From positions 567,200-631,199 of the forward strand of contig METB01000001.1 of assembly GCA_001771185.1 (NCBI GenBank): a stretch of DNA of 64,000 nt, given 5' to 3'. The stretch is from a candidate division Kazan bacterium RIFCSPHIGHO2_01_FULL_44_14. GTDB lineage: Bacteria > Patescibacteriota > Kazan-3B-28. Position 1 is the first letter of the stretch; every line of letters begins with the position of its first letter. The notes below the pieces were generated by a model, which did not search any database, was not told the origin of the DNA, and saw only the letters and a program-made list of their open reading frames with translations. The position numbers and the translations under genes were made by a program. Positions 25,575 through 37,318 of the stretch are shown piece by piece.

Positions 25575-25604
25575 CCGAATATTGAACGGCCGTTCAATAT
25601 TCGG
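25575..25604. repeat. 30-bp perfect palindrome with GAACGGCCGTTC core (copy 3), after tgt
   Basis: ccgaatattgaacggccgttcaatattcgg. Confidence 0.8.
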
Positions 25605-25793
25605 TTAGAGTTATCAATCTATTGTCACTCGTTACTCAATACCCATCACTCATAACTTATTTTTCTTGACCAGAAGCGGTTTTTGGGCTTTACTGGAGGC
25701 GTCCGCCTTCGCCAAGCCGACTACGCCACAAGGGCTACGACAGGCCAAAGGGCTACGGTGGATGAATCTTAAAAATAAGGGAGAGGTGAGTGT

Positions 25794-26309
25794 GTGATGA
25801 GAAGGAGTAGAGAAAGAAAACGGGACCCGAAGGTGATACACCGTGAGCAGCAAGTTGTTTACGGTGGGTTCGGGCTGATGATGTTTCTAGTAGCTGTTGT
25901 CCTGTTTGTTTCTCCGTGGATGATACCCAATCGTCCTATAGTTAAAATCGGCGATCAGGGTTTGAAATTGGCTGAAGCGCCGATCAGTGTAGCGTCTGCA
26001 GCTCGGAATACAGTGCAGACCCAGGATAATTGGTTCGAGGTCACGGTATATGACCAGGGCGGGATTAGTTCGAAATCTCTCGCGATTGAGGGCTATGAAT
26101 TAGGAAATCCTAATCCACTTTATCGAGTTCCGGTGATTAGCATGGATGCGAAAGCGACAAAGTGGAGTTCTATGGTGAATATCCCGACAGAACCCAAAAC
26201 GAGATTCGTTGTTTTAACACTTGAGTACCAGGTAAAAGATGGTAGTGTTAAACAATATCCGTACGTTCTGTTCTTGACTGATTCTGACAAGGAGAGTGAT
26301 GCCGAGTGA
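25794..26309 (+). CDS. hypothetical membrane-anchored protein
   Basis: 171 aa with one N-terminal TM helix. Confidence 0.45.
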   Translation: MMRRSRERKRDPKVIHREQQVVYGGFGLMMFLVAVVLFVSPWMIPNRPIVKIGDQGLKLAEAPISVASAARNTVQTQDNWFEVTVYDQGGISSKSLAIEGYELGNPNPLYRVPVISMDAKATKWSSMVNIPTEPKTRFVVLTLEYQVKDGSVKQYPYVLFLTDSDKESDAE

Positions 26310-26857
26310 ACAACCCAACAGCGGCGGTTGTAGTCATTGGCGTTCTGGTTATCTTGGCAGTGATGTGGGCGTTTGGGATGTTTCCTAAGATTGAATTGCA
26401 GACAAAAATTGCCGAATCGCAATCGTCATCGACCCAACCCACAGCATCGATTTCACTAAAACGGTCTCCCGAAAAAGTTGGTTTTTATATCAACAAAGAG
26501 TGGGGAAGACCGTTACAATCTGTTTTGGGGGTCGATAAGCAAGGGGTAAGTGGGTCTTACGATATCCCAGCTGGATTTGCTAAAGGTCCAGTGTATCGAA
26601 TCCCTAGTTCGACCTTTGATCTCTATTATTACCCGGCGGCATCTGCCCCGTTTGGGATTGTGGAGATGTATAAAGTGCTGGATGATGGAAAAACCAAAAG
26701 CGAACGCTTGTATACTTTCATTGGGAATGTTCAGCTAAACGATGAATGTTCAGTGGCTAAGTGGCAAGTGACGATTCCAGGGTCCGGTAAATATATCGTC
26801 CTAGATCCAGGACGCATGACCTGGACAGAGAATTATTATTTGTACTTAGAATACTAA
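26306..26857 (+). CDS. hypothetical membrane-anchored protein
   Basis: 183 aa; TM helix near the N-terminus; overlaps the previous stop by 4 nt; followed by a terminator at ~26859-26883. Confidence 0.45.
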   Translation: MNNPTAAVVVIGVLVILAVMWAFGMFPKIELQTKIAESQSSSTQPTASISLKRSPEKVGFYINKEWGRPLQSVLGVDKQGVSGSYDIPAGFAKGPVYRIPSSTFDLYYYPAASAPFGIVEMYKVLDDGKTKSERLYTFIGNVQLNDECSVAKWQVTIPGSGKYIVLDPGRMTWTENYYLYLEY

Positions 26858-26967
26858 ACGCGGGCCCTCGGGCCCGCTTTTTTCTTGCTTTGGTAGCGAA
26901 GTTCTGGTTTACTGGAGGCGTTCTGTTGTATGGCAGGATGAAATCTTGAAAATTTGGAGGGAGAGAT

Positions 26968-27870
26968 ATGACTAGATTATGGTTAATTTGCTTGGTGTTG
27001 GCGGTTGTGACTGGTTGTAGTAAACCAGAACCGCTGGAGTTTTCAACACTTCAGGGGCCTCTCTTGACCAAGTGGGAAGGAGAGATGAAAAAAACTGTTG
27101 TGTATGCATCATCGGATTTGCCGAGCGAGGGAGGGCTATGGATTGATAATGGTCTCGGTTGGCAAGGGCCATTTGATGCATTTAGACCAGCACCATTTTA
27201 TGCGCCAAAATTTCGATTATATGTTGGACGTATAAGCAGGTCGGTTTGGTGGAACTTGCCAACGACTCCAGTTGCATTTACCGCTACTAGTGGTTTAAGT
27301 CAGAGCGTAGTTGATTCAGTCGGTTCGGCGCGATTAATTAACGCAGATAAAGTTGGACGTCTGATTCAAATACAAATCAATCAACGTACTGCCGATGGAC
27401 TGTATTGGATGGAACGAGCAGATTCTCTTGCATGTGTGTATGTTGACCCGCTGGCAATTCTCCGATGGCACGATGACCCAGTAAATGATAGAACAATTCG
27501 GATGTTAAATAAGCGGGGGAAGGAGTTTTGTTACGCATTACAAACCGAGAATGGACAATGGAGTTTGGGCGCAGAGCGGTTCGGTGTTCCCCTCCCATCG
27601 CATTTTTCCGTTGAGTTCCGTGGTGTATCAAAGATGCCTTATTATTATCACTGGACAATGCTTCTTGATTATCAACCAAAAGTAGGGATATTGGTGTCGG
27701 CTGGACTGCCAGGAGACCCAATGAAATTATTGGAGAATGGTACAGTAACGGTTCGACAGATTCCAAGCAACCCATACATTACTAGGGCAGATATTGACTT
27801 GAATCTTGGGGTAGAAAACCCCAGCAATGAAGCACTAGAATTAAGGAATGGAATATATATGTTTTTTTGA
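26968..27870 (+). CDS. lipoprotein, hypothetical
   Basis: Signal peptide with lipobox LAVVTGC; GGAGGG RBS; terminator hairpin plus T-run at ~27884-27918. Confidence 0.55.
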   Translation: MTRLWLICLVLAVVTGCSKPEPLEFSTLQGPLLTKWEGEMKKTVVYASSDLPSEGGLWIDNGLGWQGPFDAFRPAPFYAPKFRLYVGRISRSVWWNLPTTPVAFTATSGLSQSVVDSVGSARLINADKVGRLIQIQINQRTADGLYWMERADSLACVYVDPLAILRWHDDPVNDRTIRMLNKRGKEFCYALQTENGQWSLGAERFGVPLPSHFSVEFRGVSKMPYYYHWTMLLDYQPKVGILVSAGLPGDPMKLLENGTVTVRQIPSNPYITRADIDLNLGVENPSNEALELRNGIYMFF

Positions 27871-27944
27871 AGTCATGTTAGATAGTTGCGGTCCGATGTT
27901 ACATCGGGCCGCTTTTTTTATGCCAAGACATTATACTGAAGGAG

Positions 27945-28425
27945 ATGAAACATTTGTCATTACGAAAATTAAGGTTGTCTGACCAGAGCCGTTTTACTAA
28001 ATGGTGGAGAGATACGGAATTAATCAAGTTAACTAGTGGTGTTTTGGAACCAATTTCGGACAAAATGGTTGCAAAATATTTTACGACCATGTTGAAGGAT
28101 GAGCGGGATTTGAATTTTATGATTACGGTTGATGGGAAAACGGTCGGGCATGTGGCATTAATGCACCGGCCGCGAGGTTGGTATGAGACCTAAATTGTAA
28201 TTGGCGAAAAGAGCGCTTGGGGTAAGGGATACGGGACTCTAGCGATTAAAAGTTTGTTGCAGAGAGCTAAGCGGAAGAGAATTAAGAAAATCTATCTTGA
28301 AGTTCGTCCAGATAATTCCAGGGCGATAGGGGCTTACAGGAAGTGTGGGTTTGTGGGTGGGGTCGTCTTTAAACATCCGGGCAGTAAGTCCCTGCCAGCG
28401 ACTTTGAGGATGGAATTGGGGTAGG
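27945..28425 (+). pseudogene. GNAT-family N-acetyltransferase interrupted by an in-frame TAA stop at ~28194
   Basis: The GNAT core (IGEKSAWGKGYGTLAIKSLLQRAKRKRIKKIYLEVRPDNSRAIGAYRKCGFV) continues in the same frame after the stop that closes the 82-aa ORF. Confidence 0.6.
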
Positions 28426-28614
28426 GATGTGTTTGGTTGTCTTGGGTTTGCCTTTTTCCTGTTTTATGATATGATTTTAGCGCTTCCAGAGCGGATTTTG
28501 TACTATATGATTGGGGTGGCGGGAAGGTAGTAGCCCCTCCTTCGTCCCGGCTTGTCGGGACTACGGAAGGGTCTACGATTCCCCTGAGAGGGTAATTTAC
28601 GAGATAATAGCCAT

Positions 28615-31600
28615 ATGACGACCGAAACGGGGGGCCAGCCAGTTGAATTGGCAGGACAAACCACCGTTGAGGCGGTGGCTGAACGAATTCGGGAACTAGA
28701 AGTCGGACCAGTGGTAGAAATTGCTACTGGTGAGATTAGAGATAGCCAGAAATTGGCGTTTGAGTCGCTCGAGAATCAGGATGGGAAAGTGGTTCGTAAT
28801 CCGGAGTATCTCAAGTTCTTAGGAAAACTTGATCAAGAATATGTTGATGAACGACTAGATAAAGAAGGAATGGTGAGGGTAAGGAATGTGGCAGTGATGT
28901 CAATTGATATTGCCGGTTTTTCTAATTTAGCCCAGGAATTTTTACAGGCCTCCTGGGGAGATCAGCGTGGGACCTATGCGGCCAAAAAAGTTGTCGATCA
29001 AATTGCTCCGGTACGCGAAGAAATTTTGAGTTCAGTCCACTTGTTTGGCGGAGAAGTTGATCAATTTTTGGGCGATGGAATGAATGTAATGTTTCGAGGT
29101 GGCACACCGGAAGAAAATGTGGCGCGGTCGGTGCAGGCAGCTGAACTTTTACGAAGCAATATTAAGGAACATTATCAATTTGATATTCGAATCGGGATAG
29201 ATATTGGCGACGTGGAATTAGTGGGATACGGTAGCGAAACCGAAAAACGGGCCGATATGATTGGGTCGGCAGTCCAAGGAGCGGAAAAAGTTCAGTCGCA
29301 GGCCGATGTCAAAGGTGGATACAACGTGACCTTGTCTGAAAAGGCCTATGCTTTAATGGAAGACAGTCAGTTTACGGTTTTGGAAAATGGTGTGTATGCC
29401 CTAGGGGAGATTGGCAAGAACGATTCAGTCAATGTGGCGGATTGGGTAACTGGCTTGAACGAAGAGTCAACCGATTTGGCTCTGGTTGAGAATACGATTA
29501 GGGTAAGGGAAAAGTTCTTGTCGAAATCACGGCGCAAAGAATTACGGAGTGAATTTTTATATGGAACCGAGCCCAGACAAGATGCCAGTCCTGTCAGTAC
29601 GGTCTTTGTCAGGTTGAATGTAGCGAAGATGGATTATCAGGAACTGAATCCGATTATGACCGAAGTGTTTGATATCGCCGGACGGTTGCGGGGTAAAGTG
29701 GATAAGGTCCACAATAACACCGTGATGATTAATTTCATCGCTCATTTGAATGATGTTAACAGTGTGGAGGCGAGTAAATTAGTGGCTGACTATTTAACTG
29801 ATCAACGAGTGGGTTTTGATATGGCAGCCAGTCGGTCTGAAGCGTTGGTATTGGCGGTTGATGGAGTGCGGACGGTCTATGGTGACGGAGTGATTCGAGC
29901 CAGACGGTTATTAGATGTAAATAATCCTGGCAATCGGTTAGTGGTGGACAAAAGCGTGATGGATCGGATGCTAACTCGTAAAGTTTCAGCAGATTCAATT
30001 CCGCCGGTTCGAGTGAAAGGGTTTAGTGAGCCAGTCGAACGGTTTGTGATTACTAAAATTGAACGGTCTTATGAATTGCCCAAGGGTAAACATTTGGCTG
30101 GACGAGAAATAGAGATAAAAGTGTTAGAGGATGACTTTGAGCTGGCTCGTAAAGAAGGACAAAGTCGAATCCTAATTGGTGAACCCGGGATTGGTAAATC
30201 GGCGTTAACGGCCGAGTTCTTGGCGCGCAAACAAAAAGGCGGATTGATGGTAATGGTTGGCCGAGCTGAAGCTAGTACTCAAAAACAGGCCTTCTCGGTA
30301 TGGCGTAACTTGCTGGAAGGCAGTTTGTCATTGAAAGATATGTTGGTCAAAGACAAAGAAGTAGCGATTAAAGAGTTTTATTTGTCTAACTGTCCAGTAT
30401 TATCCGAATCGTTGGCGTTATTGAATCCAATTTTGGGAACCAACTTTGAAGAAGGGGAAAAGGTTAAATATTTAGATGCTGTCGAACGCGATCAGTCCCG
30501 GGCGGAATTTGTGATGGAAACAATTAAATCGCTAACTAGCGTGGGAGTGCCAGCGGCTGTATTGTTGGAAGATTTACATTTCTTTGATCCATCATCAGAA
30601 GCCCTGGCGCGGGAGGTGATGAAGCGGGTCAAGGATTCTGATATTTATATTGTGTTAACTACTTGGCCGAAAGACGATGAACATAAACTGACTTTACCCA
30701 GGAAAGAATTCATGCGGGAGTTGGCTGATGTCAAGACACTCGAATTGGGCGGGTTGCCGGTATTCGGAGGAGATTATGACACAGCCAAAGATACGGTTGA
30801 GTTTGAACAGTGGTGGCAGGCCAATAAAGAGGTCTGGTGGCAGGCGGTAGACGCCTTTTTGGATCTGGACCGAAAAGATTTTGAAAAGAAGGAAATGGGG
30901 TATCGGCGCATTTTTACCAAGCTAGCCGAAAAAACCCAGGGCAACTTCTTGTATTTGGGTAACGCTATTTTCTACTTGGCTATTTATCAAGGGGAACGAC
31001 GATATTTTGAGGAAGACCAGAATACTAAACTGTATTCTTTGTGTGAACGAATCCAGGATGAGCAATTTGCCAACATTCCCAGTACCGAGTCGATTATCCA
31101 GTATCGGTTGGGGATGTTAGACATTGAGATCAAAAACTTGGCCCAAGATGCATCGGTGGTTGGGCTAGTGTTTACTTCAGAAGTTGTGTCGCTAATTAGT
31201 GGTGTGCCGATCGATCGCGTCAGGAGTAGTTTTGCATATGCCGAACAGAAGGGCTTCACGAAAGAACTGGGTGGAGGACAATGGATGTTTGTTCATGGCG
31301 CCATTCAAAATGCGGTGTATAACTCGATAGCGGATCTTAGACGGCGGCAGTTGAAGCATCGTGAGTTGGCCCAATACTTTGAAAAAACATCGCCAGATGA
31401 TTTGCCGCTGTTGGTGCGTCATTATCGTAATAGTGATGATTACTTGAAAGCAATGAAGTATTTGGATCAGTATGCTGAACGGCTGAAGGAGCAGGTGTTG
31501 TGGGGGCCGGCGCTCGATCAGATTCATTATGCTAGTAAGATTTTTGATAAAGTCCATGAACGGGGTTGGAAGATTGTAGACATCGGCTCGACTACTTACA

Positions 31601-32859
31601 AGGGTGAGTCGATTCAGTTGGATTTGGAACAAATTGAGAAATTGGTGCACGAAGAAATCGATCGGGCAATGGCGGCACTAATGTTGCAGCGGAAGATCGG
31701 GGACCGGAACAAGACCCTGCCCATTATCGAGCGGGCGCAGGATTTGTTTAACGACTTTCATGGGCGAGGTAATGTTGAGAGTTTGCCAATACACGACAGA
31801 TTGGCTTGGATTAGGTTATTAGCCAATGAGGGGGCAGAAAGAGCCACTGCTGAGGACAAAAACAATGCACTGACAATTTTTAAAGAAGCCTTTTCTTTGG
31901 CCAGAGATTTGGACTGTGATAGCTTTAATAAAACCGAATTAAAGGGAATGAGCAGAGAGGCGTTATTCGATTTATATCTGGCATACGGTGATGCTTTGCA
32001 TGAGATGAGCGATTTTGAAGCATCAATTGCTAGTACAAAAAAAGCAAAAAGCATAGCAATAAGTTTACAAAATCAAATTATCACTTCGAACCAGATTATT
32101 ATTTGTTATAAGGGTATGGGCGAGATGCAACTAGCGAAACAGGGGTACCAGGAAACGATATCGTTAGCAGAAAAGAATAATTTAAAAGGAGAGTTGCCGA
32201 CATTGTATTCCAACTTTGCCGAGTTTTATGCGAGTGCTGGTAAGGCAGAGTTGGCAGAGACCTACTATGATAAAGCATATGAAGCTGCTAGAATAATTGG
32301 CCAGACAGCAACTATGGCAAAGGCACGAGGAAGTATGGCTTTTATCAAGCGGAATAAGGGAGAGTACGCTGACGCACTACACTTATTTATTAATGCCAGA
32401 GACGATTTTGCTCGGAGGGGACAAGTGGCGCGAGCTATAAATGCTACCGCTGAAGCGGCTTTTTGTGCAGTGCAAATAAGTTTGTTCGAACAGGCAGAAA
32501 TGTTATTGAAAGAAGTTGCGGCTAGCAATACCAAGTTTAAGGGGAGGGGTCTCACTCTCCACGCACTTAGCGATTTGATTAAAAATGGGACGAAGAATAG
32601 AGAGCTCATAAAAATAAAATTTGAGCAAGGAGCAGAGCAGTTGCTTCAAGATAAAAATAAGAGTGATTTTGCTTTTGATTGTCTCTACTTTGGCGAAGCT
32701 TTGCTTGAGAGAGGGTTTAATGAAGGGATGGAGTATGTATTGAATGCGAAAAGAATTTATGAGGAGATTGGTGAGTTGGCTCAGATGCCGAGAATTGAGA
32801 AAATTCTTGCCCGATATGGAAAGAATATCAACCAGAGGCAAGAGCCAGTTGTTGGGTAG
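28615..32859 (+). CDS. multidomain signalling protein: class III nucleotide cyclase domain, degenerate second cyclase-like domain, STAND/AAA P-loop NTPase and TPR repeats
   Basis: Cyclase motifs VAVMSIDIAGFSNL and FGGEVDQFLGDGMNVMF (metal-binding Asp pair); second domain lacks the first Asp; Walker A ILIGEPGIGKSALT and Walker B-like LLEDLHFFD; C-terminal 500 aa is TPR-like. The architecture resembles mycobacterial cyclase-ATPase-TPR proteins but has no HTH. Confidence 0.7.
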   Translation: MTTETGGQPVELAGQTTVEAVAERIRELEVGPVVEIATGEIRDSQKLAFESLENQDGKVVRNPEYLKFLGKLDQEYVDERLDKEGMVRVRNVAVMSIDIAGFSNLAQEFLQASWGDQRGTYAAKKVVDQIAPVREEILSSVHLFGGEVDQFLGDGMNVMFRGGTPEENVARSVQAAELLRSNIKEHYQFDIRIGIDIGDVELVGYGSETEKRADMIGSAVQGAEKVQSQADVKGGYNVTLSEKAYALMEDSQFTVLENGVYALGEIGKNDSVNVADWVTGLNEESTDLALVENTIRVREKFLSKSRRKELRSEFLYGTEPRQDASPVSTVFVRLNVAKMDYQELNPIMTEVFDIAGRLRGKVDKVHNNTVMINFIAHLNDVNSVEASKLVADYLTDQRVGFDMAASRSEALVLAVDGVRTVYGDGVIRARRLLDVNNPGNRLVVDKSVMDRMLTRKVSADSIPPVRVKGFSEPVERFVITKIERSYELPKGKHLAGREIEIKVLEDDFELARKEGQSRILIGEPGIGKSALTAEFLARKQKGGLMVMVGRAEASTQKQAFSVWRNLLEGSLSLKDMLVKDKEVAIKEFYLSNCPVLSESLALLNPILGTNFEEGEKVKYLDAVERDQSRAEFVMETIKSLTSVGVPAAVLLEDLHFFDPSSEALAREVMKRVKDSDIYIVLTTWPKDDEHKLTLPRKEFMRELADVKTLELGGLPVFGGDYDTAKDTVEFEQWWQANKEVWWQAVDAFLDLDRKDFEKKEMGYRRIFTKLAEKTQGNFLYLGNAIFYLAIYQGERRYFEEDQNTKLYSLCERIQDEQFANIPSTESIIQYRLGMLDIEIKNLAQDASVVGLVFTSEVVSLISGVPIDRVRSSFAYAEQKGFTKELGGGQWMFVHGAIQNAVYNSIADLRRRQLKHRELAQYFEKTSPDDLPLLVRHYRNSDDYLKAMKYLDQYAERLKEQVLWGPALDQIHYASKIFDKVHERGWKIVDIGSTTYKGESIQLDLEQIEKLVHEEIDRAMAALMLQRKIGDRNKTLPIIERAQDLFNDFHGRGNVESLPIHDRLAWIRLLANEGAERATAEDKNNALTIFKEAFSLARDLDCDSFNKTELKGMSREALFDLYLAYGDALHEMSDFEASIASTKKAKSIAISLQNQIITSNQIIICYKGMGEMQLAKQGYQETISLAEKNNLKGELPTLYSNFAEFYASAGKAELAETYYDKAYEAARIIGQTATMAKARGSMAFIKRNKGEYADALHLFINARDDFARRGQVARAINATAEAAFCAVQISLFEQAEMLLKEVAASNTKFKGRGLTLHALSDLIKNGTKNRELIKIKFEQGAEQLLQDKNKSDFAFDCLYFGEALLERGFNEGMEYVLNAKRIYEEIGELAQMPRIEKILARYGKNINQRQEPVVG

Positions 32860-32902
32860 GCATTTTACTCCCGATTTAGGTTTGTGTGACTAGGCCGAAA
32901 GA

Positions 32903-33808
32903 GTGAAAAGTCCCAGTAGAAGCGAATGCCCTTTTGTTACTATAGGAAGAAAGTTTTTAGGGTACACTGAAGGTATGAAAGTCAGGGTAGTTGCCGACAA
33001 ACGGATATTTTGTCTCTATGTGGCGCTGAATGCGATGGTTTATGGTGGGGGAAATGCCGGAGTGGTGTACTCGGTTCGTCAGCGGGTATGGGAATGGTTC
33101 GGTCAACAGAATTTGACTCTGGAACCACTGAAACAATTTTTCGCCAAGTACCCGGAGGGAAATTACTATCGTTTTCGCGATTGGGCTTTGAGTCACGGTG
33201 AACCGCCGGAGTTTAGCGAGATTAATGATTTTTGGAGACGAAACAATCCGAAGGAGCTGGACGGCTTCGCGGAGTTGCTACGCGATTTTTGGGTACAGAC
33301 CAATTTAGAACAATTGTGGCGGGATTTAAGTGAGGACTATCTTGCTGTGGTGGGGGAGACACAAATTAATGGAGAGATAGCTGCCAAGCAGGTACAGAAG
33401 TATTTGAGAATGAAAGATATGGGTATTGATGAGTTAGTAATAGTGCCTAATTTGTTGGAAAATTATAATACTGGTTTTGGTCCCAAGCTAGGTAGGGTTG
33501 CCTACGCTATATTAGGCCCGTCAGAAAACGGTTTTTCAGTGTCGAGGATTAGTCATGAACTACTACATTCGATTATCAATCCTCTAACAGAAGATTATGA
33601 TAAGGCCAAGCGCTCGAGTTTGCGTGAATACATTATTCGTGCGATGGTCCTGCGAATGAATCCAGATCAATCCAGACACCAAGAGTTAATCATAGAAACC
33701 TACCCGCAACTCGATCAGTTCTGGGGTAAATTACGGGATTTTGAAGCAGATGGCCAGCCCTTTGATGAATATTTGCGAACTTGGTTGCCAACTATCCGAC
33801 TTGATTAA
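32903..33808 (+). CDS. hypothetical protein with HExxH motif (putative metallopeptidase); start may be the internal Met at 32966
   Basis: Motif VSRISHELLHSIINP; sits immediately upstream of the radical-SAM/SPASM gene. Confidence 0.45.
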   Translation: MKSPSRSECPFVTIGRKFLGYTEGMKVRVVADKRIFCLYVALNAMVYGGGNAGVVYSVRQRVWEWFGQQNLTLEPLKQFFAKYPEGNYYRFRDWALSHGEPPEFSEINDFWRRNNPKELDGFAELLRDFWVQTNLEQLWRDLSEDYLAVVGETQINGEIAAKQVQKYLRMKDMGIDELVIVPNLLENYNTGFGPKLGRVAYAILGPSENGFSVSRISHELLHSIINPLTEDYDKAKRSSLREYIIRAMVLRMNPDQSRHQELIIETYPQLDQFWGKLRDFEADGQPFDEYLRTWLPTIRLD

Positions 33809-33877
33809 TCCGCACCAGTGGCATATAATTCCAGTAGTACTTTGAAATTACAATCTCTGTGATAAGGAGGTGGGCTT

Positions 33878-35128
33878 TTGATTGAGCTGATGTCAGCTAA
33901 ACTGATATGCGACACTATCGTCGTCAGTGACACCGACGGTGTATATCTGTATGCCCAAGCTACGAAGCGAGTGGCCCGGGTAAGTAAAATGAGCAAGACC
34001 GTCAGGAGCAACCTTGCAAACAGAGGGTTCTTTAATACGGTTCCACGATCAATGTGGCATCGTCGCCCGAAAAGGTGGCGAAGCTTAATGCTACTACTGA
34101 CCAAGAGTTGTCCGTTGGCCTGCGAGTACTGTTACGCGCATGGTGGCGAAAACGATGGAATGATGAGTCCAGAGACAGCTGATAGGGCAGTGGCGGCATA
34201 CATGGAGACCAAGCCAGTCAACCCTAAAGTAACTTTCTTTGGGGCGGGGGAGCCGACGCTTAACGTTCAAGCGATTAAGCATGTGGTGGAGAAATATGGC
34301 TCTCGGATTCGCTGGTCCATTACGACTTCCGGTGTGATGCCGGAATCATTTCTGCAGTGGCTAATTGACCACGATGTTGGTGTAACGGTATCGATGGATG
34401 GACCGCCACATATTCAAAATCGCCTACGACCATTACGCAACGGGGGTGCTTCAGCGTCCATCGTTGAGCGGACTATTAGAACTTTAGCAGAAGTCCCTGG
34501 CAGAACTGTGGCAGTACGCGCGACAGTAACCCATGAGACCCTTCAAGAAATCAATCAGGTACTAGTTTATTTCCAAGATTTAGGAATAACAACGGTCCAT
34601 CTTGAGGGAATGTACTCGTTGGGTCGAGCCCTCGACCAGCGAGAGAATGCCTTAAATCCGCTCGATTTTTCCGAAATGCTCCAGATGGTACAGGCGGGTT
34701 TGGATTGGGCGCGTTCAACCGGCAGACGGCTCAAGATTGGAGGGCTAACCTATCTGCTTACTCCGCGTATTGGTTACTATTGTGGCCCAATGTCAGGACA
34801 AACGATGGTTGTTAACTGTTTGGGCCAACTTACGGCTTGCAGTGAAGTGAGCGACGATCAAATTTCAGAATGGGAGCACTTTGGGTTGGGCTATATTGAT
34901 GGTAAGGGTCGGATTCTGGTCAATGAAGAGCGGCTGAATGACTATCAACACCGCGTTGTTAGTCGCATGGTCCCATGCCGTCAATGCTTTGCTCGTTATA
35001 TCTGTCGAGGAGGATGTGCTCACAAGGCGTGGGTTGCGACTGGTGATATCTATGTCCCGAATCCCCAACACTGCCGATTCGTTCGGGCTATTGTACCTTT
35101 TTTGATTAGGCGCATGGCCGAGCGGTAG
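33878..35128 (+). CDS. radical SAM enzyme with C-terminal SPASM domain (peptide-modifying maturase-like)
   Basis: rSAM cluster motif CPLACEYCYAHGG (Cx3Cx2C); SPASM-type Cys-rich C-terminus CRQCFARYICRGGCAHKAW...HCRF; ~85-aa N-terminal extension could be an RRE. Confidence 0.8.
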   Translation: MIELMSAKLICDTIVVSDTDGVYLYAQATKRVARVSKMSKTVRSNLANRGFFNTVPRSMWHRRPKRWRSLMLLLTKSCPLACEYCYAHGGENDGMMSPETADRAVAAYMETKPVNPKVTFFGAGEPTLNVQAIKHVVEKYGSRIRWSITTSGVMPESFLQWLIDHDVGVTVSMDGPPHIQNRLRPLRNGGASASIVERTIRTLAEVPGRTVAVRATVTHETLQEINQVLVYFQDLGITTVHLEGMYSLGRALDQRENALNPLDFSEMLQMVQAGLDWARSTGRRLKIGGLTYLLTPRIGYYCGPMSGQTMVVNCLGQLTACSEVSDDQISEWEHFGLGYIDGKGRILVNEERLNDYQHRVVSRMVPCRQCFARYICRGGCAHKAWVATGDIYVPNPQHCRFVRAIVPFLIRRMAER

Positions 35129-35165
35129 CTCACGAATAGGAAAATCTAGTTATGGAGGTAACACG

Positions 35166-35288
35166 GTGACAAACGAGATTGTAGTATCTGATGCTACAAT
35201 GCCTGAACTCTCAACTGGCGAATCGTCAGCTGGGTGTCCGGCCGACGTTAGCTGCGGTGACGACTGCAGTTGCACGGATGACAAGTAA
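35166..35288 (+). CDS. 40-aa Cys/Asp-rich putative RiPP precursor peptide (GTG start; not in the ORF track)
   Basis: GGAGG RBS 7 nt upstream of GTG; translation MTNEIVVSDATMPELSTGESSAGCPADVSCGDDCSCTDDK; followed by an intrinsic terminator; 37 nt downstream of the rSAM/SPASM gene. Confidence 0.55.
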   Translation: MTNEIVVSDATMPELSTGESSAGCPADVSCGDDCSCTDDK

Positions 35289-35311
35289 TCTGAACTTCGT
35301 CATCGCGATGA

Positions 35312-35345
35312 TGTGCCCCGGCTATAATATGCCGGGGCTTTTTTA
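35312..35345 (+). terminator. intrinsic terminator after the precursor-peptide gene
   Basis: ccccggc-tataatat-gccgggg hairpin followed by cttttttat. Confidence 0.65.
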
Positions 35346-35365
35346 TCGTTTTTTTGAATATTTTT

Positions 35366-35590
35366 TTATCGTAAACTGTCGGAGCTGAAACTTTCACCCA
35401 TAATAGCTGAGGTAGGCGAGATTGTGATTGTACTTTTAGCTAGAGAATAGCCGAATAAGATTCCAAGCATAAGCACCATAGCTAGTACTACAACTAACTC
35501 AATTTCTACTAACTTTGCTGTGATGTGAGAAGATTTAATAAGCATATTATAGAGAAGGTCACAGATTCTTATCTTCACCGAATCCTTCAC
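35366..35590 (-). CDS. small membrane protein sharing an N-terminal TM motif with the upstream Big_2 protein
   Basis: 74 aa; segment VEIELVVVLAMVLMLGILFGYSLA parallels LEASLAVLVVLGAIFGYSLAS of the 438-aa protein. Confidence 0.4.
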   Translation of the reverse strand: MKDSVKIRICDLLYNMLIKSSHITAKLVEIELVVVLAMVLMLGILFGYSLAKSTITISPTSAIMGESFSSDSLR

Positions 35591-36875
35591 CCATCACCCC
35601 AGTACTTGCATCAGTACCTTTGTTGCCGATTATGAGTTGGGAGATAAAGTTGGCAACGGTCTTAACTACATTGGTTTCGCTAGCAGGGCTAAACATTGCC
35701 TGAATGTCTCTCTTGAACTGTTCCCAGTTAAGAGAAACTCTCATAGCCAACTTTTGTGTAGTTGTGGTAGCCGTCTCGGCGATGATTTGGTTAACAGCGG
35801 TTTGTGAGACAAGGGTTGAACCGGTTTCGGTTATTTGCTTTGTTTGGGCTACGGCGAAGGCATCCAAGGCGGTAGCAACCATTGTTTTGGTTTCTGTTAC
35901 TGAACCGTCAGTACTAGGCGCAGTCAAAGCGTCGGCAACTGTATCGAGAGCGGTGTTCCCTTCGCTGGCACCTGGGTAGGTGGCTGATTCCTCCGCGCCG
36001 AGGTATTTGTCAGTAGTAGTATCGGTTGAAGGGATATTAACAATCTTGGATGGGACAGTAGCGACTGTCTCGCGGACAGTAATGGTCGCAGTTGCGCTAG
36101 CACCATTGGCGGTGGCTTTAACTTTTACTGTACCTGCTTGAACACCAGTCAATTCGCCAGTGGCTGAATTGATGGTGGCGCGTTCTTTCGAAATTTCGTC
36201 AGCGAAACTCCATGTGATTTGCAAATCAGAAATACTGTTGCCGGTGGCATCTAAGGCGACAGCGGAGAAGTCACGGGTTTGGCCAACGGTAAGTGAAGCA
36301 ATGCTGGGCAGAACGTAAAGTGTGGATACCGGTGGTGTGATTGGCTTAACGGTGTCTCCACTAGATGAACCAGGAGTAAGGGTAATACTTTTAATAGTGC
36401 TACCACCAGCAAAGGTCATTACGATAACATCTACACTATTTAGGGCGATGGCTCCTTGAGGGGTGCTTACCGAAGTGTCGCCTATTGTTACTCTGTCGTA
36501 GCCACCTTGGACATAAACAACTCCGGTGAATGGTTCGGTTAATGGTTGTACGAAAGTATAGTTAGCGCCTGAAGTTTGGCCAACTATACCATTAAGGCCT
36601 TGTGAGACATTGCCCGGAGTAGTGTTGGCAGAAGTAGCGCGGACCCGGTATTGGCCACTTAAGTTCTGATTGGTGAAGTTAATCCCACTATAGATTCGAC
36701 TATTAATAGAGAATGAAGTAGTGGTTCCGGCAATCTGAATATCGCCGGCAACTAGTTCAGTGCTGGCGAGTGAATATCCAAAAATGGCTCCTAGCACAAC
36801 AAGTACGGCTAGGGAGGCCTCTAATTCTTTTTCGACCAGCCCCCAAAATTTATGGAAAACGGTGCTCTTTTTCAT
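35559..36875 (-). CDS. cell-surface protein with bacterial Ig-like (Big_2) domain
   Basis: 438 aa; N-terminal TM anchor; Big_2-like segment LTVGQTRDFSAVALDATGNSISDLQITWSF...GTVKVKATANGASATATITV; Thr/Ala-rich C-terminal region. Confidence 0.6.
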   Translation of the reverse strand: MKKSTVFHKFWGLVEKELEASLAVLVVLGAIFGYSLASTELVAGDIQIAGTTTSFSINSRIYSGINFTNQNLSGQYRVRATSANTTPGNVSQGLNGIVGQTSGANYTFVQPLTEPFTGVVYVQGGYDRVTIGDTSVSTPQGAIALNSVDVIVMTFAGGSTIKSITLTPGSSSGDTVKPITPPVSTLYVLPSIASLTVGQTRDFSAVALDATGNSISDLQITWSFADEISKERATINSATGELTGVQAGTVKVKATANGASATATITVRETVATVPSKIVNIPSTDTTTDKYLGAEESATYPGASEGNTALDTVADALTAPSTDGSVTETKTMVATALDAFAVAQTKQITETGSTLVSQTAVNQIIAETATTTTQKLAMRVSLNWEQFKRDIQAMFSPASETNVVKTVANFISQLIIGNKGTDASTGVMGEGFGEDKNL

Positions 36876-37318
36876 TTTGTTTTTATGTTTCTACTGGGGT
36901 TATATTTACCAGCTTTTCATTCTATTGTAGCACAAAAATCAGATTATGTCAACCCCGTTAGAAATCCAACGCCACTGACCATATGAACGGATAATAATGG
37001 TCCAGCGAACGGTGCTATCGCTTGGTTTGGTCAATAAATATCACATTGGTTGGGCAATTTCTAACGGGGTCAACCCCCATCCTTTCTGTCACCCTGAGCG
37101 GAGTAGCAGTCGAGTCGAAGGATCTAGATTCCTCGATTTCGCTATGCTCCACTCGGAATGACAGGAAAAAAATAATGCTCCACTCGGAATGACAAAAAGA
37201 CATTATTCGGAGTGATAGTTTTTTGTTTCTGTCTAGATTCCGGCTCGGTGGCCGGAATGACAGAGGGAGAGGGGCTTACTATTTGATTTTCTCGCTCTAC
37301 TAGGGCATAATTCATACT

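What the first reader, a model, noticed from the sequence alone, without database searches (positions are those of the whole stretch)
28615..32859. 1414-aa protein combining class III nucleotide cyclase, degenerate cyclase, STAND-type NTPase and TPR array, directly upstream of the RiPP-like genes
The first cyclase domain keeps both metal-binding Asp motifs (IDIAGFS and GDG), so it is probably catalytic. The second cyclase-like domain has lost the first Asp. A P-loop NTPase (GEPGIGKS) and ~500 aa of TPR repeats follow, with no DNA-binding domain.

This resembles the mycobacterial cyclase-ATPase-TPR(-LuxR) proteins but lacks the HTH. It also recalls the effector-NTPase-sensor layout of antiviral STAND (Avs-like) proteins, here with a nucleotide-cyclase effector. 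It is only 44 nt upstream of the HExxH/rSAM/peptide genes on the same strand, so it may regulate or be co-transcribed with them.
Basis: partly seen in the sequence, partly recalled or inferred. Interest (0 to 1): 0.6.

Follow-up and report, generated by a model that had tools for sequence, protein, structure and literature searches.

The report
sAC-like tandem cyclase–STAND–TPR signalling protein
This is a real 1414-residue signalling protein of a Saccharibacteria (TM7) bacterium, built like full-length mammalian soluble adenylyl cyclase (two complementary cyclase halves, then an ATP-switch and a TPR sensor); it is a divergent member of a common bacterial type, and related genomes show no conserved link to the peptide-maturation genes next to it.

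Summary
The ORF (28615-32859, +, 1414 aa) and all the quoted motifs are real.

**Architecture.** It runs C1 cyclase, C2 cyclase, STAND NTPase (NBD-HD-WHD), then arm plus TPR solenoid, with no HTH.

**Active site.** The second cyclase domain is not simply degenerate. Across 15 relatives (25-74% identity), C1 keeps both metal-binding Asp. C2 keeps the complementary Lys, Thr and Arg. This predicts one composite active site, as in soluble and transmembrane adenylyl cyclases. The transition-state Asn is Ile in the window and Asn in 6 of 15 relatives.

**How common it is.** The closest solved structure to the tandem domains is human sAC. The closest to the C-terminal part is the TPR-STAND protein PH0952. 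Tandem-cyclase/AAA_16/TPR proteins without an HTH are common in bacteria.

**Lineage.** Relatives come from Candidatus Saccharibacteria and unnamed small-genome bacteria sharing the same gene order.

**Link to the RiPP genes.** All five homologous loci with downstream DNA run cyclase gene, convergent gene, then manC and/or secD where the DNA extends. None has the HExxH/rSAM/peptide genes. Four rSAM-homologue contexts (five loci) have no cyclase gene. The RiPP cassette therefore looks like a local insertion between the cyclase stop codon and a terminator. Read-through is possible here but is not a conserved partnership.

No Avs profile matched and the neighbourhood is housekeeping.

Verdict: a new, divergent member of a known kind, of moderate to low interest.

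The parts
28448..28475 (+). Sigma-70-like promoter candidate (TTGCCT-16-TATGAT, with an extended TG), 140 nt upstream of the start codon.
   Evidence: Consensus scan. This is a pattern match only.
28615..32859 (+). Complete ORF of 1414 aa encoding the tandem cyclase-STAND-TPR protein.
   Evidence: Full-length homologues of 1379-1547 aa are listed; ORFs of 1393-1457 aa at the related loci are.
28876..29400 (+). C1 cyclase homology domain (about residues 88-262). It carries the metal-binding Asp98 and Asp154. Gln150 occupies the position of sAC Lys95.
   Evidence: Pfam PF00211. phmmer and profile matches to human sAC C1 and to CyaB. Asp98 and Asp154 are conserved in 13 of 13 relatives.
29578..30060 (+). 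C2 cyclase homology domain (about residues 322-482). The metal Asp positions are Arg333 and Asn368. It keeps Lys364, Thr420 and Arg431. The Asn position is Ile427.
   Evidence: Profile match to CyaB 3r5g at E 1.6e-6, with K/T/R aligned to CyaB K/T/R and Ile aligned to the CyaB Asn. C1-C2 hhalign. Family conservation.
30094..30759 (+). STAND nucleotide-binding domain (about residues 494-715). Walker A GEPGIGKS is at 522-529 (nt 30178-30201). Walker B VLLED is at 649-653 (nt 30559-30573), followed by the LHFFD motif.
   Evidence: Pfam AAA_16, E 2.4e-10. Lys528 is conserved in 14 of 15 relatives and Glu652 in 15 of 15. AF2 model. Foldseek.
30775..31323 (+). Helical domain plus winged-helix domain of the NOD (about residues 721-903). 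Boundaries are approximate.
   Evidence: Secondary structure of the AF2 model, pLDDT mostly above 85. The Foldseek top hit 6mfv (PH0952, a STAND with a TPR sensor) has E 3.2e-12 over 859 columns.
31336..32838 (+). Arm plus TPR solenoid (about residues 908-1408). It has about 25 helices and the protein ends inside it. No further domain follows.
   Evidence: AF2 model. Pfam TPR_12, and TPR_MalT in relatives. Foldseek hits to LGN, Rap and MalT TPR domains.
32975..33808 (+). Neighbouring gene, not part of the conserved unit: an HExxH (HELLH) protein. The likely true start is ATG 32975; the mechanical ORF starts at GTG 32903.
   Evidence: Homologues align from residue 25-27.
33878..35128 (+). Neighbouring gene: a radical SAM/SPASM peptide maturase.
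   Evidence: NCBIfam sub-threshold matches to rSAM_nif11 and PapB. Pfam Radical_SAM. A family of about 33 homologues.
35166..35288 (+). Neighbouring gene: a 40-aa precursor peptide, MTNEIVVSDATMPELSTGESSAGCPADVSCGDDCSCTDDK, with a GGAGG ribosome-binding site.
   Evidence: Peptides sharing a C-terminal CGDDC[ST]C core (GCPAD[VI]xCGDDC[ST]C or close to it in three of the four) follow the rSAM homologues in L010, L012 and L013.
35315..35338 (+). Intrinsic terminator (8 G-C pairs followed by a T run). It is the first terminator-like site downstream of the cyclase gene whose stem is all G-C pairs and that lies outside a coding region.

Best explanation
The gene encodes a cytosolic, signal-regulated class III nucleotidyl cyclase, most likely an adenylyl cyclase.

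**Catalytic part.** It has the layout of full-length soluble adenylyl cyclase. Two cyclase homology domains on one chain would pack as a pseudo-heterodimer with a single composite active site. C1 supplies the two metal-binding Asp (Asp98, Asp154). C2 supplies the base-recognising Lys364 and Thr420 and the transition-state Arg431.

**Regulatory part.** Downstream lies a MalT/PH0952-type STAND module: an NBD with intact Walker A and B motifs, a helical domain, a winged helix, an arm, and a TPR sensor of about 500 residues.

**Inferred mechanism, by analogy with MalT, PH0952 and sAC.** In the resting ADP-bound state, arm and TPR contacts keep the NOD closed and hold the cyclase at low activity. 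A still unknown ligand, either a small molecule or a peptide/protein, binds the TPR/arm. This opens the NOD and allows ADP-to-ATP exchange and multimerisation. That in turn relieves inhibition of, or clusters, the C1-C2 units and raises cNMP output.

**Shown here:** the domain composition, residue conservation, fold similarity, phylogenetic distribution and gene order.

**Inferred only:** catalysis, substrate, ligand, oligomerisation and direction of regulation.

**Genomic setting.** The gene is a vertically inherited resident of a Saccharibacteria clade, lying between tgt and manC-secDF. The adjacent HExxH/rSAM/peptide cassette is a separate unit that landed between its stop codon and a terminator.
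For: - **Domains.** Pfam AAA_16, Guanylate_cyc and TPR_12 match the protein.
- **C1.** It matches human sAC C1 at E 1e-5 for the single sequence. As a profile it matches sAC at 4e-10 and CyaB at 1.2e-11.
- **C2.** The profile matches CyaB at 1.6e-6, with the Lys, Thr and Arg columns aligned.
- **Conservation across 15 relatives at 25-74% identity.** C1 Asp98 and Asp154 are kept in 13 of 13. C2 Lys364, Thr420 and Arg431 are kept in 15 of 15. Walker A Lys is kept in 14 of 15 and Walker B Glu in 15 of 15.
- **Fold of the cyclase part.** The top 19 Foldseek hits to the C1-C2 model are human sAC catalytic cores aligned over both domains (E about 3e-15, TM 0.54).
- **Fold of the regulatory part.** The AF2 model of residues 486-1414 has pLDDT 87.6. 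Its top Foldseek hit is the TPR-sensor STAND PH0952 (6mfv, E 3.2e-12). MalT and Apaf-1 also appear.
- **Literature.** Full-length sAC is described as C1-C2 plus an autoinhibitory region plus a predicted STAND domain with a P-loop (PMC12802110). The autoinhibition model for TPR-STANDs is in PMC6468293.
- **Eukaryotic relative.** The family profile aligns to a 1648-aa Balamuthia cyclase/AAA_16 protein from C2 through the NOD to the arm (hhalign probability 99.8%, E 8.5e-29).
- **Same architecture elsewhere.** Proteins with two Guanylate_cyc stretches, AAA_16 and TPR and no HTH are common among the distant hits.
- **Gene order.** A conserved order is seen in L001, L002, L004, L005 and L006.
Against: - **Missing Asn.** The transition-state Asn of C2 is Ile427 in the window. 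It is Ile, Val or Ser in 9 of 15 relatives. From my own knowledge of mammalian AC mutagenesis, losing this Asn lowers kcat strongly. Activity may therefore be weak, or the chemistry may be altered.
- **Weak cyclase model.** The AF2 model of C1-C2 is low-confidence (mean pLDDT 59, three sequences). The pseudo-heterodimer packing is therefore not shown structurally.
- **C2 does not match sAC C2.** The C2 profile did not retrieve sAC C2 from the PDB. Specific orthology with ADCY10 is not shown.
- **Bicarbonate site.** The Lys that binds bicarbonate in sAC is Gln150 here and varies across the family.
- **No receptor found.** A simple PROSITE-pattern scan found no cNMP-binding motif in the 64-kb window. 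No cNMP receptor is therefore identified.
- **sAC regulation is itself unknown.** No regulator acting through the STAND part of sAC was found (PMC12802110). The regulatory half of the mechanism rests on analogy with MalT and PH0952.
Confidence: 0.65

Rival explanations
1. The protein is a dedicated regulator, or an operon partner, of the adjacent RiPP (HExxH/rSAM/Cys-Asp-rich peptide) cluster. For example, the TPR array could sense the peptide and cAMP could control its production.
For: - The genes lie on the same strand.
- No terminator-like site lies between the cyclase stop (32859) and the next gene. The first convincing terminator is at 35315-35338, after the peptide gene.
- In relative L001 the scan finds a terminator-like hairpin directly after the cyclase stop. 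By eye, L004 and L005 have similar hairpins, though the scan did not call them. The cassette seems to sit between the ORF and its terminator, which would allow read-through.
- There is precedent for cyclase/AAA/TPR proteins in RiPP neighbourhoods: NCBIfam TIGR03903, 'TOMM system kinase/cyclase fusion protein', gives a weak partial hit.
- The TPR model resembles the peptide-binding Rap receptors.
Against: - None of the five homologous loci with downstream DNA (L001, L002, L004, L005, L006) has HExxH, rSAM or peptide genes.
- None of the four contexts of rSAM homologues (L010, L011/L012, L013/L014) has the cyclase gene. This was confirmed by tblastn in both directions.
- L010 has the RiPP cassette upstream of manC-secD without the cyclase gene.
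- A promoter-like site lies in front of the rSAM gene (33801-33829).
- The TIGR03903 score is 49.7 bits against a cut-off of 705.75, and there is no kinase domain.
Confidence: 0.08
2. The protein is an antiviral STAND (Avs-like) or Pycsar-like defence protein. The TPR would sense a phage protein and the cyclase would make an immune cNMP signal.
For: - The effector-NTPase-sensor order matches.
- There are weak PADLOC matches to Pycsar cyclases (best E 5.3e-8).
- Defence and non-defence STAND clades are interspersed in the published phylogeny (PMC13581612).
Against: - No Avs model matched. The PycC matches cover only the generic cyclase fold of C1.
- No adjacent cNMP-activated effector gene is present.
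- The gene holds one fixed position among housekeeping genes (rplJ/L, tgt, manC, secDF) in genomes whose copies are only 31-41% identical. This pattern indicates vertical inheritance, not a defence island.
- In the window the active site would be formed within one chain, so oligomerisation is not needed to create it.
Confidence: 0.06
3. The protein is a catalytically dead cyclase-like scaffold. The C1-C2 unit would bind nucleotide or a partner without making cNMP, and the protein would act only as an ATP-dependent STAND hub.
For: - The Asn-to-Ile427 change is at a transition-state residue in the window and in its nearest relatives.
- Pfam scores for the cyclase domains are low (25.7 bits), and PF00211 is missed entirely in P0003, P0089 and the L005 and L006 proteins.
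- No cNMP-binding motif was seen nearby.
Against: - Five catalytic residues, split between two domains, are invariant across 25-74% identity. This includes the subclade that lacks the Asn. Such conservation is hard to explain without selection on the active site.
- Six of 15 relatives keep the Asn.
Confidence: 0.15

Closest known systems
Full-length soluble adenylyl cyclase (sACfl, ADCY10) and its relatives
   Same: - The order of parts matches: C1, then C2, on one chain, followed by a STAND-type P-loop NTPase and a long helical C-terminal region (PMC12802110).
- C1 keeps the metal Asp residues. By my own recollection of sAC, its C2 likewise supplies the Lys, Thr and Arg.
- Human sAC is the best PDB match by sequence for C1 and by fold for C1-C2.
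- A eukaryotic (Balamuthia) cyclase/AAA_16 protein aligns from C2 through the NOD to the arm.
   Different: - Identity is only 13-16% in the Foldseek alignments of the low-confidence model.
- The bicarbonate-binding Lys95 position is Gln150.
- The C2 Asn is Ile.
- The C2 profile does not retrieve sAC C2.
- The autoinhibitory and haem regions of sAC were not examined.
- Whether the C1/C2 duplication is shared by descent was not tested.
Bacterial tandem class III cyclase/AAA_16/TPR proteins (about 1300-1400 aa; annotated 'class 3 adenylate cyclase/predicted ATPase' or 'AAA family ATPase')
   Same: - The domain order is identical and there is no HTH (P0110, P0119, P0121, P0104, P0195).
- They align to the window family in a single stretch from C1 to the NBD.
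- Members include Acidimicrobiia and candidate division Kazan.
   Different: - The Saccharibacteria clade is a distant outlier. Only about 11 cluster representatives match over the full length (E at or below 1e-102). The next hits are at E about 1e-53.
- Its cyclase domains are so divergent that Pfam barely detects them.
MalT and PH0952 (STAND ATPases with a TPR sensor)
   Same: - The NBD-HD-WHD-arm-TPR fold matches. The Foldseek top hit is 6mfv, and MalT 8bob is also found.
- Relatives match TPR_MalT.
- The Walker B-LHFFD motif resembles, from my recollection, the LAL/MalT-type DDLHW[AV]D motif.
   Different: MalT and PH0952 carry a DNA-binding effector. Here the effector is an N-terminal tandem cyclase.
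Mycobacterial CHD+LuxR proteins (Rv0386, Rv1358, Rv2488c)
   Same: A cyclase homology domain is fused to an AAA ATPase and TPR. The CHD+LuxR sub-family is described in PMC3466318.
   Different: By my own knowledge, those proteins have one cyclase domain. They end in a LuxR HTH, and the sub-family is reported as restricted to Mycobacterium. The window protein has two cyclase domains and no HTH.
TOMM system kinase/cyclase fusion protein (NCBIfam TIGR03903)
   Same: It is a large protein whose model aligns to the window protein across the end of the cyclase domain and the AAA region (model length 1267). The family name ties it to a RiPP (TOMM) system. It gives a partial match over residues 428-686.
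   Different: The score is 49.7 bits against a cut-off of 705.75. There is no kinase domain. The neighbouring RiPP genes here are of the rSAM/SPASM type, not TOMM. The linkage is not conserved.

Membership tests
Class III nucleotidyl cyclase (PF00211) | Sequence match to the cyclase homology domain | tested here: met
   C1 scores 25.7 bits against the PF00211 cut-off of 21.9. The C1 profile matches CyaB at 1.2e-11 and sAC at 4e-10. The C2 profile matches CyaB at 1.6e-6.
Class III nucleotidyl cyclase (PF00211) | Two metal-binding Asp | tested here: met
   Asp98 and Asp154 in C1 are kept in 13 of 13 relatives that include C1.
Class III nucleotidyl cyclase (PF00211) | Base-specifying Lys plus Asp/Thr on the partner domain | tested here: met
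   Lys364 and Thr420 in C2 align with the CyaB Lys and Thr. Both are kept in 15 of 15 relatives.
Class III nucleotidyl cyclase (PF00211) | Transition-state Asn and Arg | tested here: inconclusive
   Arg431 is kept in 15 of 15 relatives. The Asn position is Ile427 in the window and Asn in 6 of 15 relatives.
Class III nucleotidyl cyclase (PF00211) | Cyclase activity | not testable with these tools
   This needs an enzyme assay.
Soluble adenylyl cyclase (ADCY10) type | Tandem C1-C2 on one chain, followed by a STAND P-loop module | tested here: met
   The sACfl layout is described in PMC12802110.
Soluble adenylyl cyclase (ADCY10) type | Bicarbonate-site Lys (Lys95 in human sAC C1) | tested here: not met
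   The aligned residue is Gln150. It is variable (Q/N/G/K/E) across the family.
Soluble adenylyl cyclase (ADCY10) type | Specific orthology, with C1 and C2 each closest to sAC C1 and C2 | tested here: inconclusive
   The C1 profile hits CyaB slightly better than sAC. C2 does not retrieve sAC C2. No phylogeny was made.
STAND NTPase with TPR sensor (MalT/PH0952 type) | Walker A GxxxxGK[ST] and Walker B hhhhD/E-D | tested here: met
   GEPGIGKS at 522-529 and VLLED at 649-653. Lys528 is kept in 14 of 15 relatives and Glu652 in 15 of 15.
STAND NTPase with TPR sensor (MalT/PH0952 type) | NBD-HD-WHD-arm-TPR fold | tested here: met
   AF2 model with pLDDT 87.6. The Foldseek top hit is 6mfv at E 3.2e-12 over 859 columns, and MalT 8bob and Apaf-1 3shf are also found. 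TM scores are low (0.26-0.34), as expected for a flexible multi-domain chain.
STAND NTPase with TPR sensor (MalT/PH0952 type) | Inducer-dependent ADP/ATP switch and multimerisation | not testable with these tools
   This needs biochemistry.
Mycobacterial CHD-ATPase-TPR-LuxR proteins (Rv0386 type) | C-terminal LuxR/GerE HTH | tested here: not met
   No HTH family matched the window protein or its relatives. The model ends within the TPR solenoid.
Mycobacterial CHD-ATPase-TPR-LuxR proteins (Rv0386 type) | Single cyclase homology domain | tested here: not met
   Two cyclase domains are present.
Avs / antiviral STAND | Match to Avs profiles | tested here: not met
   PADLOC gave no Avs hit, only PycC and TPR hits.
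Avs / antiviral STAND | Defence-island or otherwise variable genomic context | tested here: not met
   The gene holds a fixed position next to tgt, manC and secDF in five related loci.
Pycsar (PycC plus effector) | Cyclase with an adjacent cNMP-activated effector gene | tested here: not met
   PycC matches are weak (E at best 5.3e-8) and cover only C1. Neighbouring genes are a disrupted GNAT gene upstream and the RiPP genes or a Big_2 protein downstream.
TOMM kinase/cyclase fusion (TIGR03903) | Score at or above the curated cut-off, and an N-terminal kinase domain | tested here: not met
   49.7 bits against a cut-off of 705.75. No kinase family appears in Pfam.

The most novel reading that the evidence does not exclude
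In ultra-small, host-dependent Saccharibacteria, this sAC-like cyclase-STAND could be a conserved master sensor. Its TPR array would bind a host-derived or peptide cue and convert it into cAMP that governs the episymbiotic lifestyle.

In this particular genome, insertion of a ranthipeptide-like cassette between the ORF and its terminator would have placed a secreted-peptide pathway under the same promoter. That would create a new sensor/peptide circuit.

A compact bacterial homologue might also reveal what the unexplained STAND half of mammalian sAC does.
Probability: 0.1. Interest if true: 0.65.

Novelty: new member of a known kind. Interest (0 to 1): 0.33.

Why it matters
A gene of this size (4.2 kb) takes up a noticeable share of a genome this small; one relative lies on a 560-kb chromosome. 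It keeps one chromosomal position while diverging to about 31-41% identity among the more distant relatives, which suggests an important signalling role.

An adenylate cyclase has been listed as a feature that distinguishes clade G6 from clade G1 oral Saccharibacteria (PMC8386444). I did not verify that it is the same gene.

The protein is also a simple relative of the full-length soluble adenylyl cyclase layout, whose STAND half still has no known regulator (PMC12802110).

For the genome scan, the practical result is negative. The cyclase gene should not be counted as part of the neighbouring RiPP cluster or as a defence gene.

Tried and rejected
- **Word-indexed homologue search with residues 60-490.** It returned nothing, not even the identical partial protein. 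This is a failure of the search and was not used as evidence.
- **AF2 model of C1-C2 from a three-sequence alignment.** Mean pLDDT was only 59. It was used only for the coarse Foldseek result, not for residue geometry.
- **Rfam on the whole window.** It found only two tRNAs. There is no riboswitch in the 190-nt leader.
- **Flanking direct or inverted repeats around the RiPP cassette.** Only short, chance-level matches were found. No insertion scars were identified.
- **PROSITE cNMP-binding patterns on the six-frame translation of the window.** No match. This is a weak test and covers only 64 kb.
- **'P0002 lacks C1'.** Rejected. Its contig has a run of N inside the gene, and C1 is encoded just upstream.
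- **The 65-aa ORF 35191-35388 as the precursor peptide.** Rejected. It runs through the terminator, whereas the 40-aa ORF 35166-35288 has a ribosome-binding site and conserved homologues.
- **PMC2447327, a survey of actinobacterial cyclases.** The held text did not contain the relevant passages.

Full report
**Observation**

The window has an uninterrupted ORF at 28615..32859 on the + strand (ATG start, 1414 aa).
- IDIAGFS at 97-103
- GDG at 153-155
- GEPGIGKS at 522-529

Pfam reports AAA_16 (residues 494-674, E 2.4e-10) and Guanylate_cyc (25.7 bits, cut-off 21.9). It also reports TPR_12 (1157-1226) and weaker TPR families. It reports no DNA-binding family.

**The two cyclase domains**

phmmer against PDB sequences gives human soluble adenylyl cyclase (ADCY10) C1 as the best solved relative. 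It covers query residues 93-249 at E 1e-5. In that alignment Asp98 and Asp154 match the two metal-binding Asp of sAC. Gln150 matches the sAC Lys in the motif LKFAGD.

I collected relatives and built separate profiles for the two domains.
- The C1 profile hits CyaB (3r5g, 1.2e-11) and sAC (4e-10).
- The C2 profile hits CyaB at 1.6e-6.
- In the CyaB alignment, query K(VDK) aligns with the CyaB Lys of 'IDKFVGD'. Query Thr420 aligns with the Thr of 'YTIIG'. Arg431 aligns with the Arg of 'VNLASRL'. The CyaB Asn aligns with Ile427.
- C1 and C2 align to each other in the same register (hhalign E 4.8e-5).

The 15-sequence family alignment spans 25-74% identity to the window. It shows the following conservation:

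| Residue | Role | Conserved in |
|---|---|---|
| C1 Asp98, Asp154 | metal binding | 13 of 13 |
| C2 Lys364, Thr420, Arg431 | base recognition, transition state | 15 of 15 |
| C2 position 427 | transition-state Asn | Asn in 6 of 15; Ile, Val or Ser otherwise |
| C2 positions 333, 368 | former metal Asp sites | mostly not Asp at 333 (Arg in 9 of 15); 368 is Asp in 8 of 15 but Asn in the window |

This split, with metals on one domain and Lys/Thr/Arg on the other, is what a C1/C2 pseudo-heterodimer with one active site would show. So 'degenerate' understates the second domain.

The AF2 model of residues 60-492 is poor (mean pLDDT 59, three sequences). Even so, its 19 best Foldseek matches in the PDB are human sAC catalytic cores. 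They align across both domains over about 465 columns (E about 3e-15, TM 0.54). AC9, a transmembrane cyclase, first appears at rank 20.

**The NTPase and the repeats**

I built an 11-sequence alignment for residues 486-1414. It gave a confident AF2 model (mean pLDDT 87.6, pTM 0.70). The approximate layout is:
- an alpha/beta NBD, about residues 498-715
- a helical domain, about 721-791
- a winged-helix region, about 798-903
- an uninterrupted helical solenoid, about 908-1408, running to the end of the chain

The Foldseek top hit is 6mfv, the Pyrococcus PH0952 'STAND with a TPR sensor' (E 3.2e-12, 859 columns). MalT (8bob), Apaf-1 (3shf) and many TPR proteins, including Rap receptors, follow.

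The Walker A Lys is kept in 14 of 15 relatives. The Walker B Glu is kept in 15 of 15. Relatives also match TPR_MalT. The STAND/TPR call is supported, and so is the absence of an HTH.

**Who else has it**

- The word-indexed search found only three close proteins, then a drop to E 1e-20.
- The exhaustive profile search used residues 60-1000 against 1.84 billion representatives. About 11 representatives matched over the full length (E at or below 1e-102). The next hits were at about 1e-53. There were 264 hits at or below 1e-30 and 18,931 at or below 1e-10.
- Several distant hits of 1300-1400 aa match in one stretch from C1 to the NBD. They have two Guanylate_cyc stretches plus AAA_16 plus TPR and no HTH (P0110, P0119, P0121, P0104, P0195).
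- Named examples come from Acidimicrobiia, candidate division Kazan, Anaerolineales and the amoebozoan Balamuthia.
- The family profile aligns to the 1648-aa Balamuthia protein from C2 through the NOD to the arm (probability 99.8%, E 8.5e-29).

Full-length mammalian sAC is described as C1-C2 plus an autoinhibitory region plus a predicted STAND domain with a P-loop (PMC12802110). Bacterial sAC-like cyclases have been known since the Chloroflexus work cited in PMC11006738. The architecture is therefore known and widespread. What is new is only a very divergent clade.

**Taxon and gene order**

- The genome-collection scan found a 73%-identical copy in an 'uncultured Candidatus Saccharibacteria bacterium' MAG.
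- It also found a 33%-identical copy on a 560-kb chromosome of an uncultured bacterium.
- The metagenome scan added three more loci.

The gene order recurs in L001, L002, L004, L005 and L006. It runs (rplJ-rplL-)tgt, variable genes, cyclase-STAND-TPR (1393-1457 aa), a convergent unknown or Big_2-like gene, manC, then secD-secF, as far as each contig extends (L002 ends in the convergent gene; in L004 secD follows it directly).

Identity to the window is 31-41% for the cyclase protein in these loci. It is 61-73% for SecD and 65-75% for L7/L12.

The apparently short P0002 is an assembly artefact. A run of N splits the gene, and C1 is encoded just upstream.

**Link to the RiPP genes**

In the window, the cyclase stop is followed by these features:
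- an HExxH protein: mechanical ORF from 32903, but homologues align from residue 25-27, so ATG 32975 is the likely start
- an rSAM/SPASM maturase at 33878-35128
- a 40-aa peptide ORF at 35166-35288 with a GGAGG site
- a strong terminator at 35315-35338

None of the five related cyclase loci has any of these genes (tblastn).

The rSAM protein has about 33 homologues. I read the contexts of three of them, which gave five loci in four contexts. L010 is a 209-kb contig with HExxH, rSAM and peptide, then GIY-YIG, manC and secD. L011 and L012 carry the Brennerbacteria-named protein. L013 and L014 make up the remaining contexts. All lack the cyclase gene.

In most of those loci the rSAM gene is followed by a peptide sharing the CGDDC[ST]C core. 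Three of the four sequences also share the preceding CPAD motif.

The two units are therefore inherited independently. The window is the only place seen where they are adjacent.

In L001 the scan finds a terminator-like hairpin right after the cyclase stop. By eye, L004 and L005 have similar hairpins, though the scan did not call them. In the window no terminator-like site lies between the cyclase stop and the next gene, and the first convincing one comes after the peptide gene. The cassette appears to have been inserted between the ORF and a terminator. Read-through transcription here is plausible but untested. A promoter-like site also precedes the rSAM gene (33801-33829).

**Defence reading**

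PADLOC returns only weak PycC (cyclase fold) hits and a generic TPR hit. No Avs model matched. The fixed housekeeping neighbourhood and the lack of an adjacent effector argue against Avs or Pycsar membership.

**Mechanism**

*Shown:* the domain set, the conserved split catalytic residues, intact NTPase motifs, a STAND/TPR fold, and no HTH.

*Inferred, by analogy with MalT/PH0952 (PMC6468293) and with the lower activity of sACfl relative to truncated sAC (PMC12802110 and PMC11006738):*
- The TPR/arm holds the ADP-bound NOD closed and the cyclase at low activity.
- Ligand binding opens the NOD.
- ATP binding and multimerisation then raise cNMP synthesis.

A Lys/Thr pair predicts ATP as the substrate. 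That prediction rests on my own knowledge of class III cyclases.

*Caveats:*
- Ile427 replaces the catalytic Asn.
- The bicarbonate Lys is absent.
- No cNMP receptor was seen in the window.
- The ligand is unknown.

**Verdict**

- The protein is a new, divergent (Saccharibacteria/CPR) member of the known sAC-like tandem-cyclase/STAND/TPR kind.
- It is not a defence protein, and it is not a conserved partner of the RiPP cluster.

Noticed in passing
window 35166-35288 (+): The likely RiPP precursor is a 40-aa peptide, MTNEIVVSDATMPELSTGESSAGCPADVSCGDDCSCTDDK. It has a GGAGG ribosome-binding site and is followed by a strong terminator at 35315-35338. Homologous peptides sharing a CGDDC[ST]C core (preceded by CPAD[VI] in most) follow the rSAM homologues in L010, L012 and L013. 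The Cys/Asp-rich core and the PapB-like rSAM suggest a ranthipeptide-type product. The 65-aa ORF 35191-35388 runs through the terminator and is probably not a gene.
   Followed up: partly
window 32903-33808 (+): Homologues of the HExxH (HELLH) protein align only from its residue 25-27. The real start is probably ATG 32975, which makes the gap to the cyclase stop about 115 nt. Its only family hint is a sub-threshold DUF4932 match.
   Followed up: partly
window 27945-28424 (+): A GNAT acetyltransferase gene just upstream of the cyclase gene is interrupted by an in-frame TAA at 28191-28193. The reading frame continues with typical GNAT sequence to 28424. This is either a pseudogene or a sequencing error.
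   Followed up: no
window about 25600-37300; loci L001, L004, L005, L006, L010: The stretch between tgt and manC-secDF looks like a variable slot in these small genomes. It holds the cyclase-STAND gene plus a Big_2-like gene in some genomes. It holds glycosyltransferase, ABC transporter or DUF6624 genes in others. In L010 it holds a RiPP cluster with a second rSAM, M16 and MA-type peptidases and a GIY-YIG gene. The window has both the cyclase gene and a RiPP cassette.
   Followed up: partly
L002 about 2750-2900: A run of N in the MAG contig CAYOPS010000005.1 splits the homologous gene. As a result, the database protein P0002 (1145 aa) wrongly appears to lack the first cyclase domain.
   Followed up: yes
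window 28425-28614 (+): The 190-nt leader of the cyclase gene contains an imperfect GC-rich hairpin at about 28535-28575. No Rfam family matches it.
   Followed up: no
window 35366-35590 and 35559-36875 (-): A small predicted membrane protein and a 438-aa Big_2-domain protein lie convergent to the cyclase gene. Their counterparts directly follow the cyclase gene in L001, L002, L004 and L006 (26-36% identity). This pair may be the conserved neighbour of the cyclase gene.
   Followed up: partly
window 1-64000: GC skew is strongly and uniformly positive (0.09-0.32 in every 2-kb bin), and most long ORFs are on the + strand. This fits a single replichore with strong gene-strand bias.
   Followed up: no
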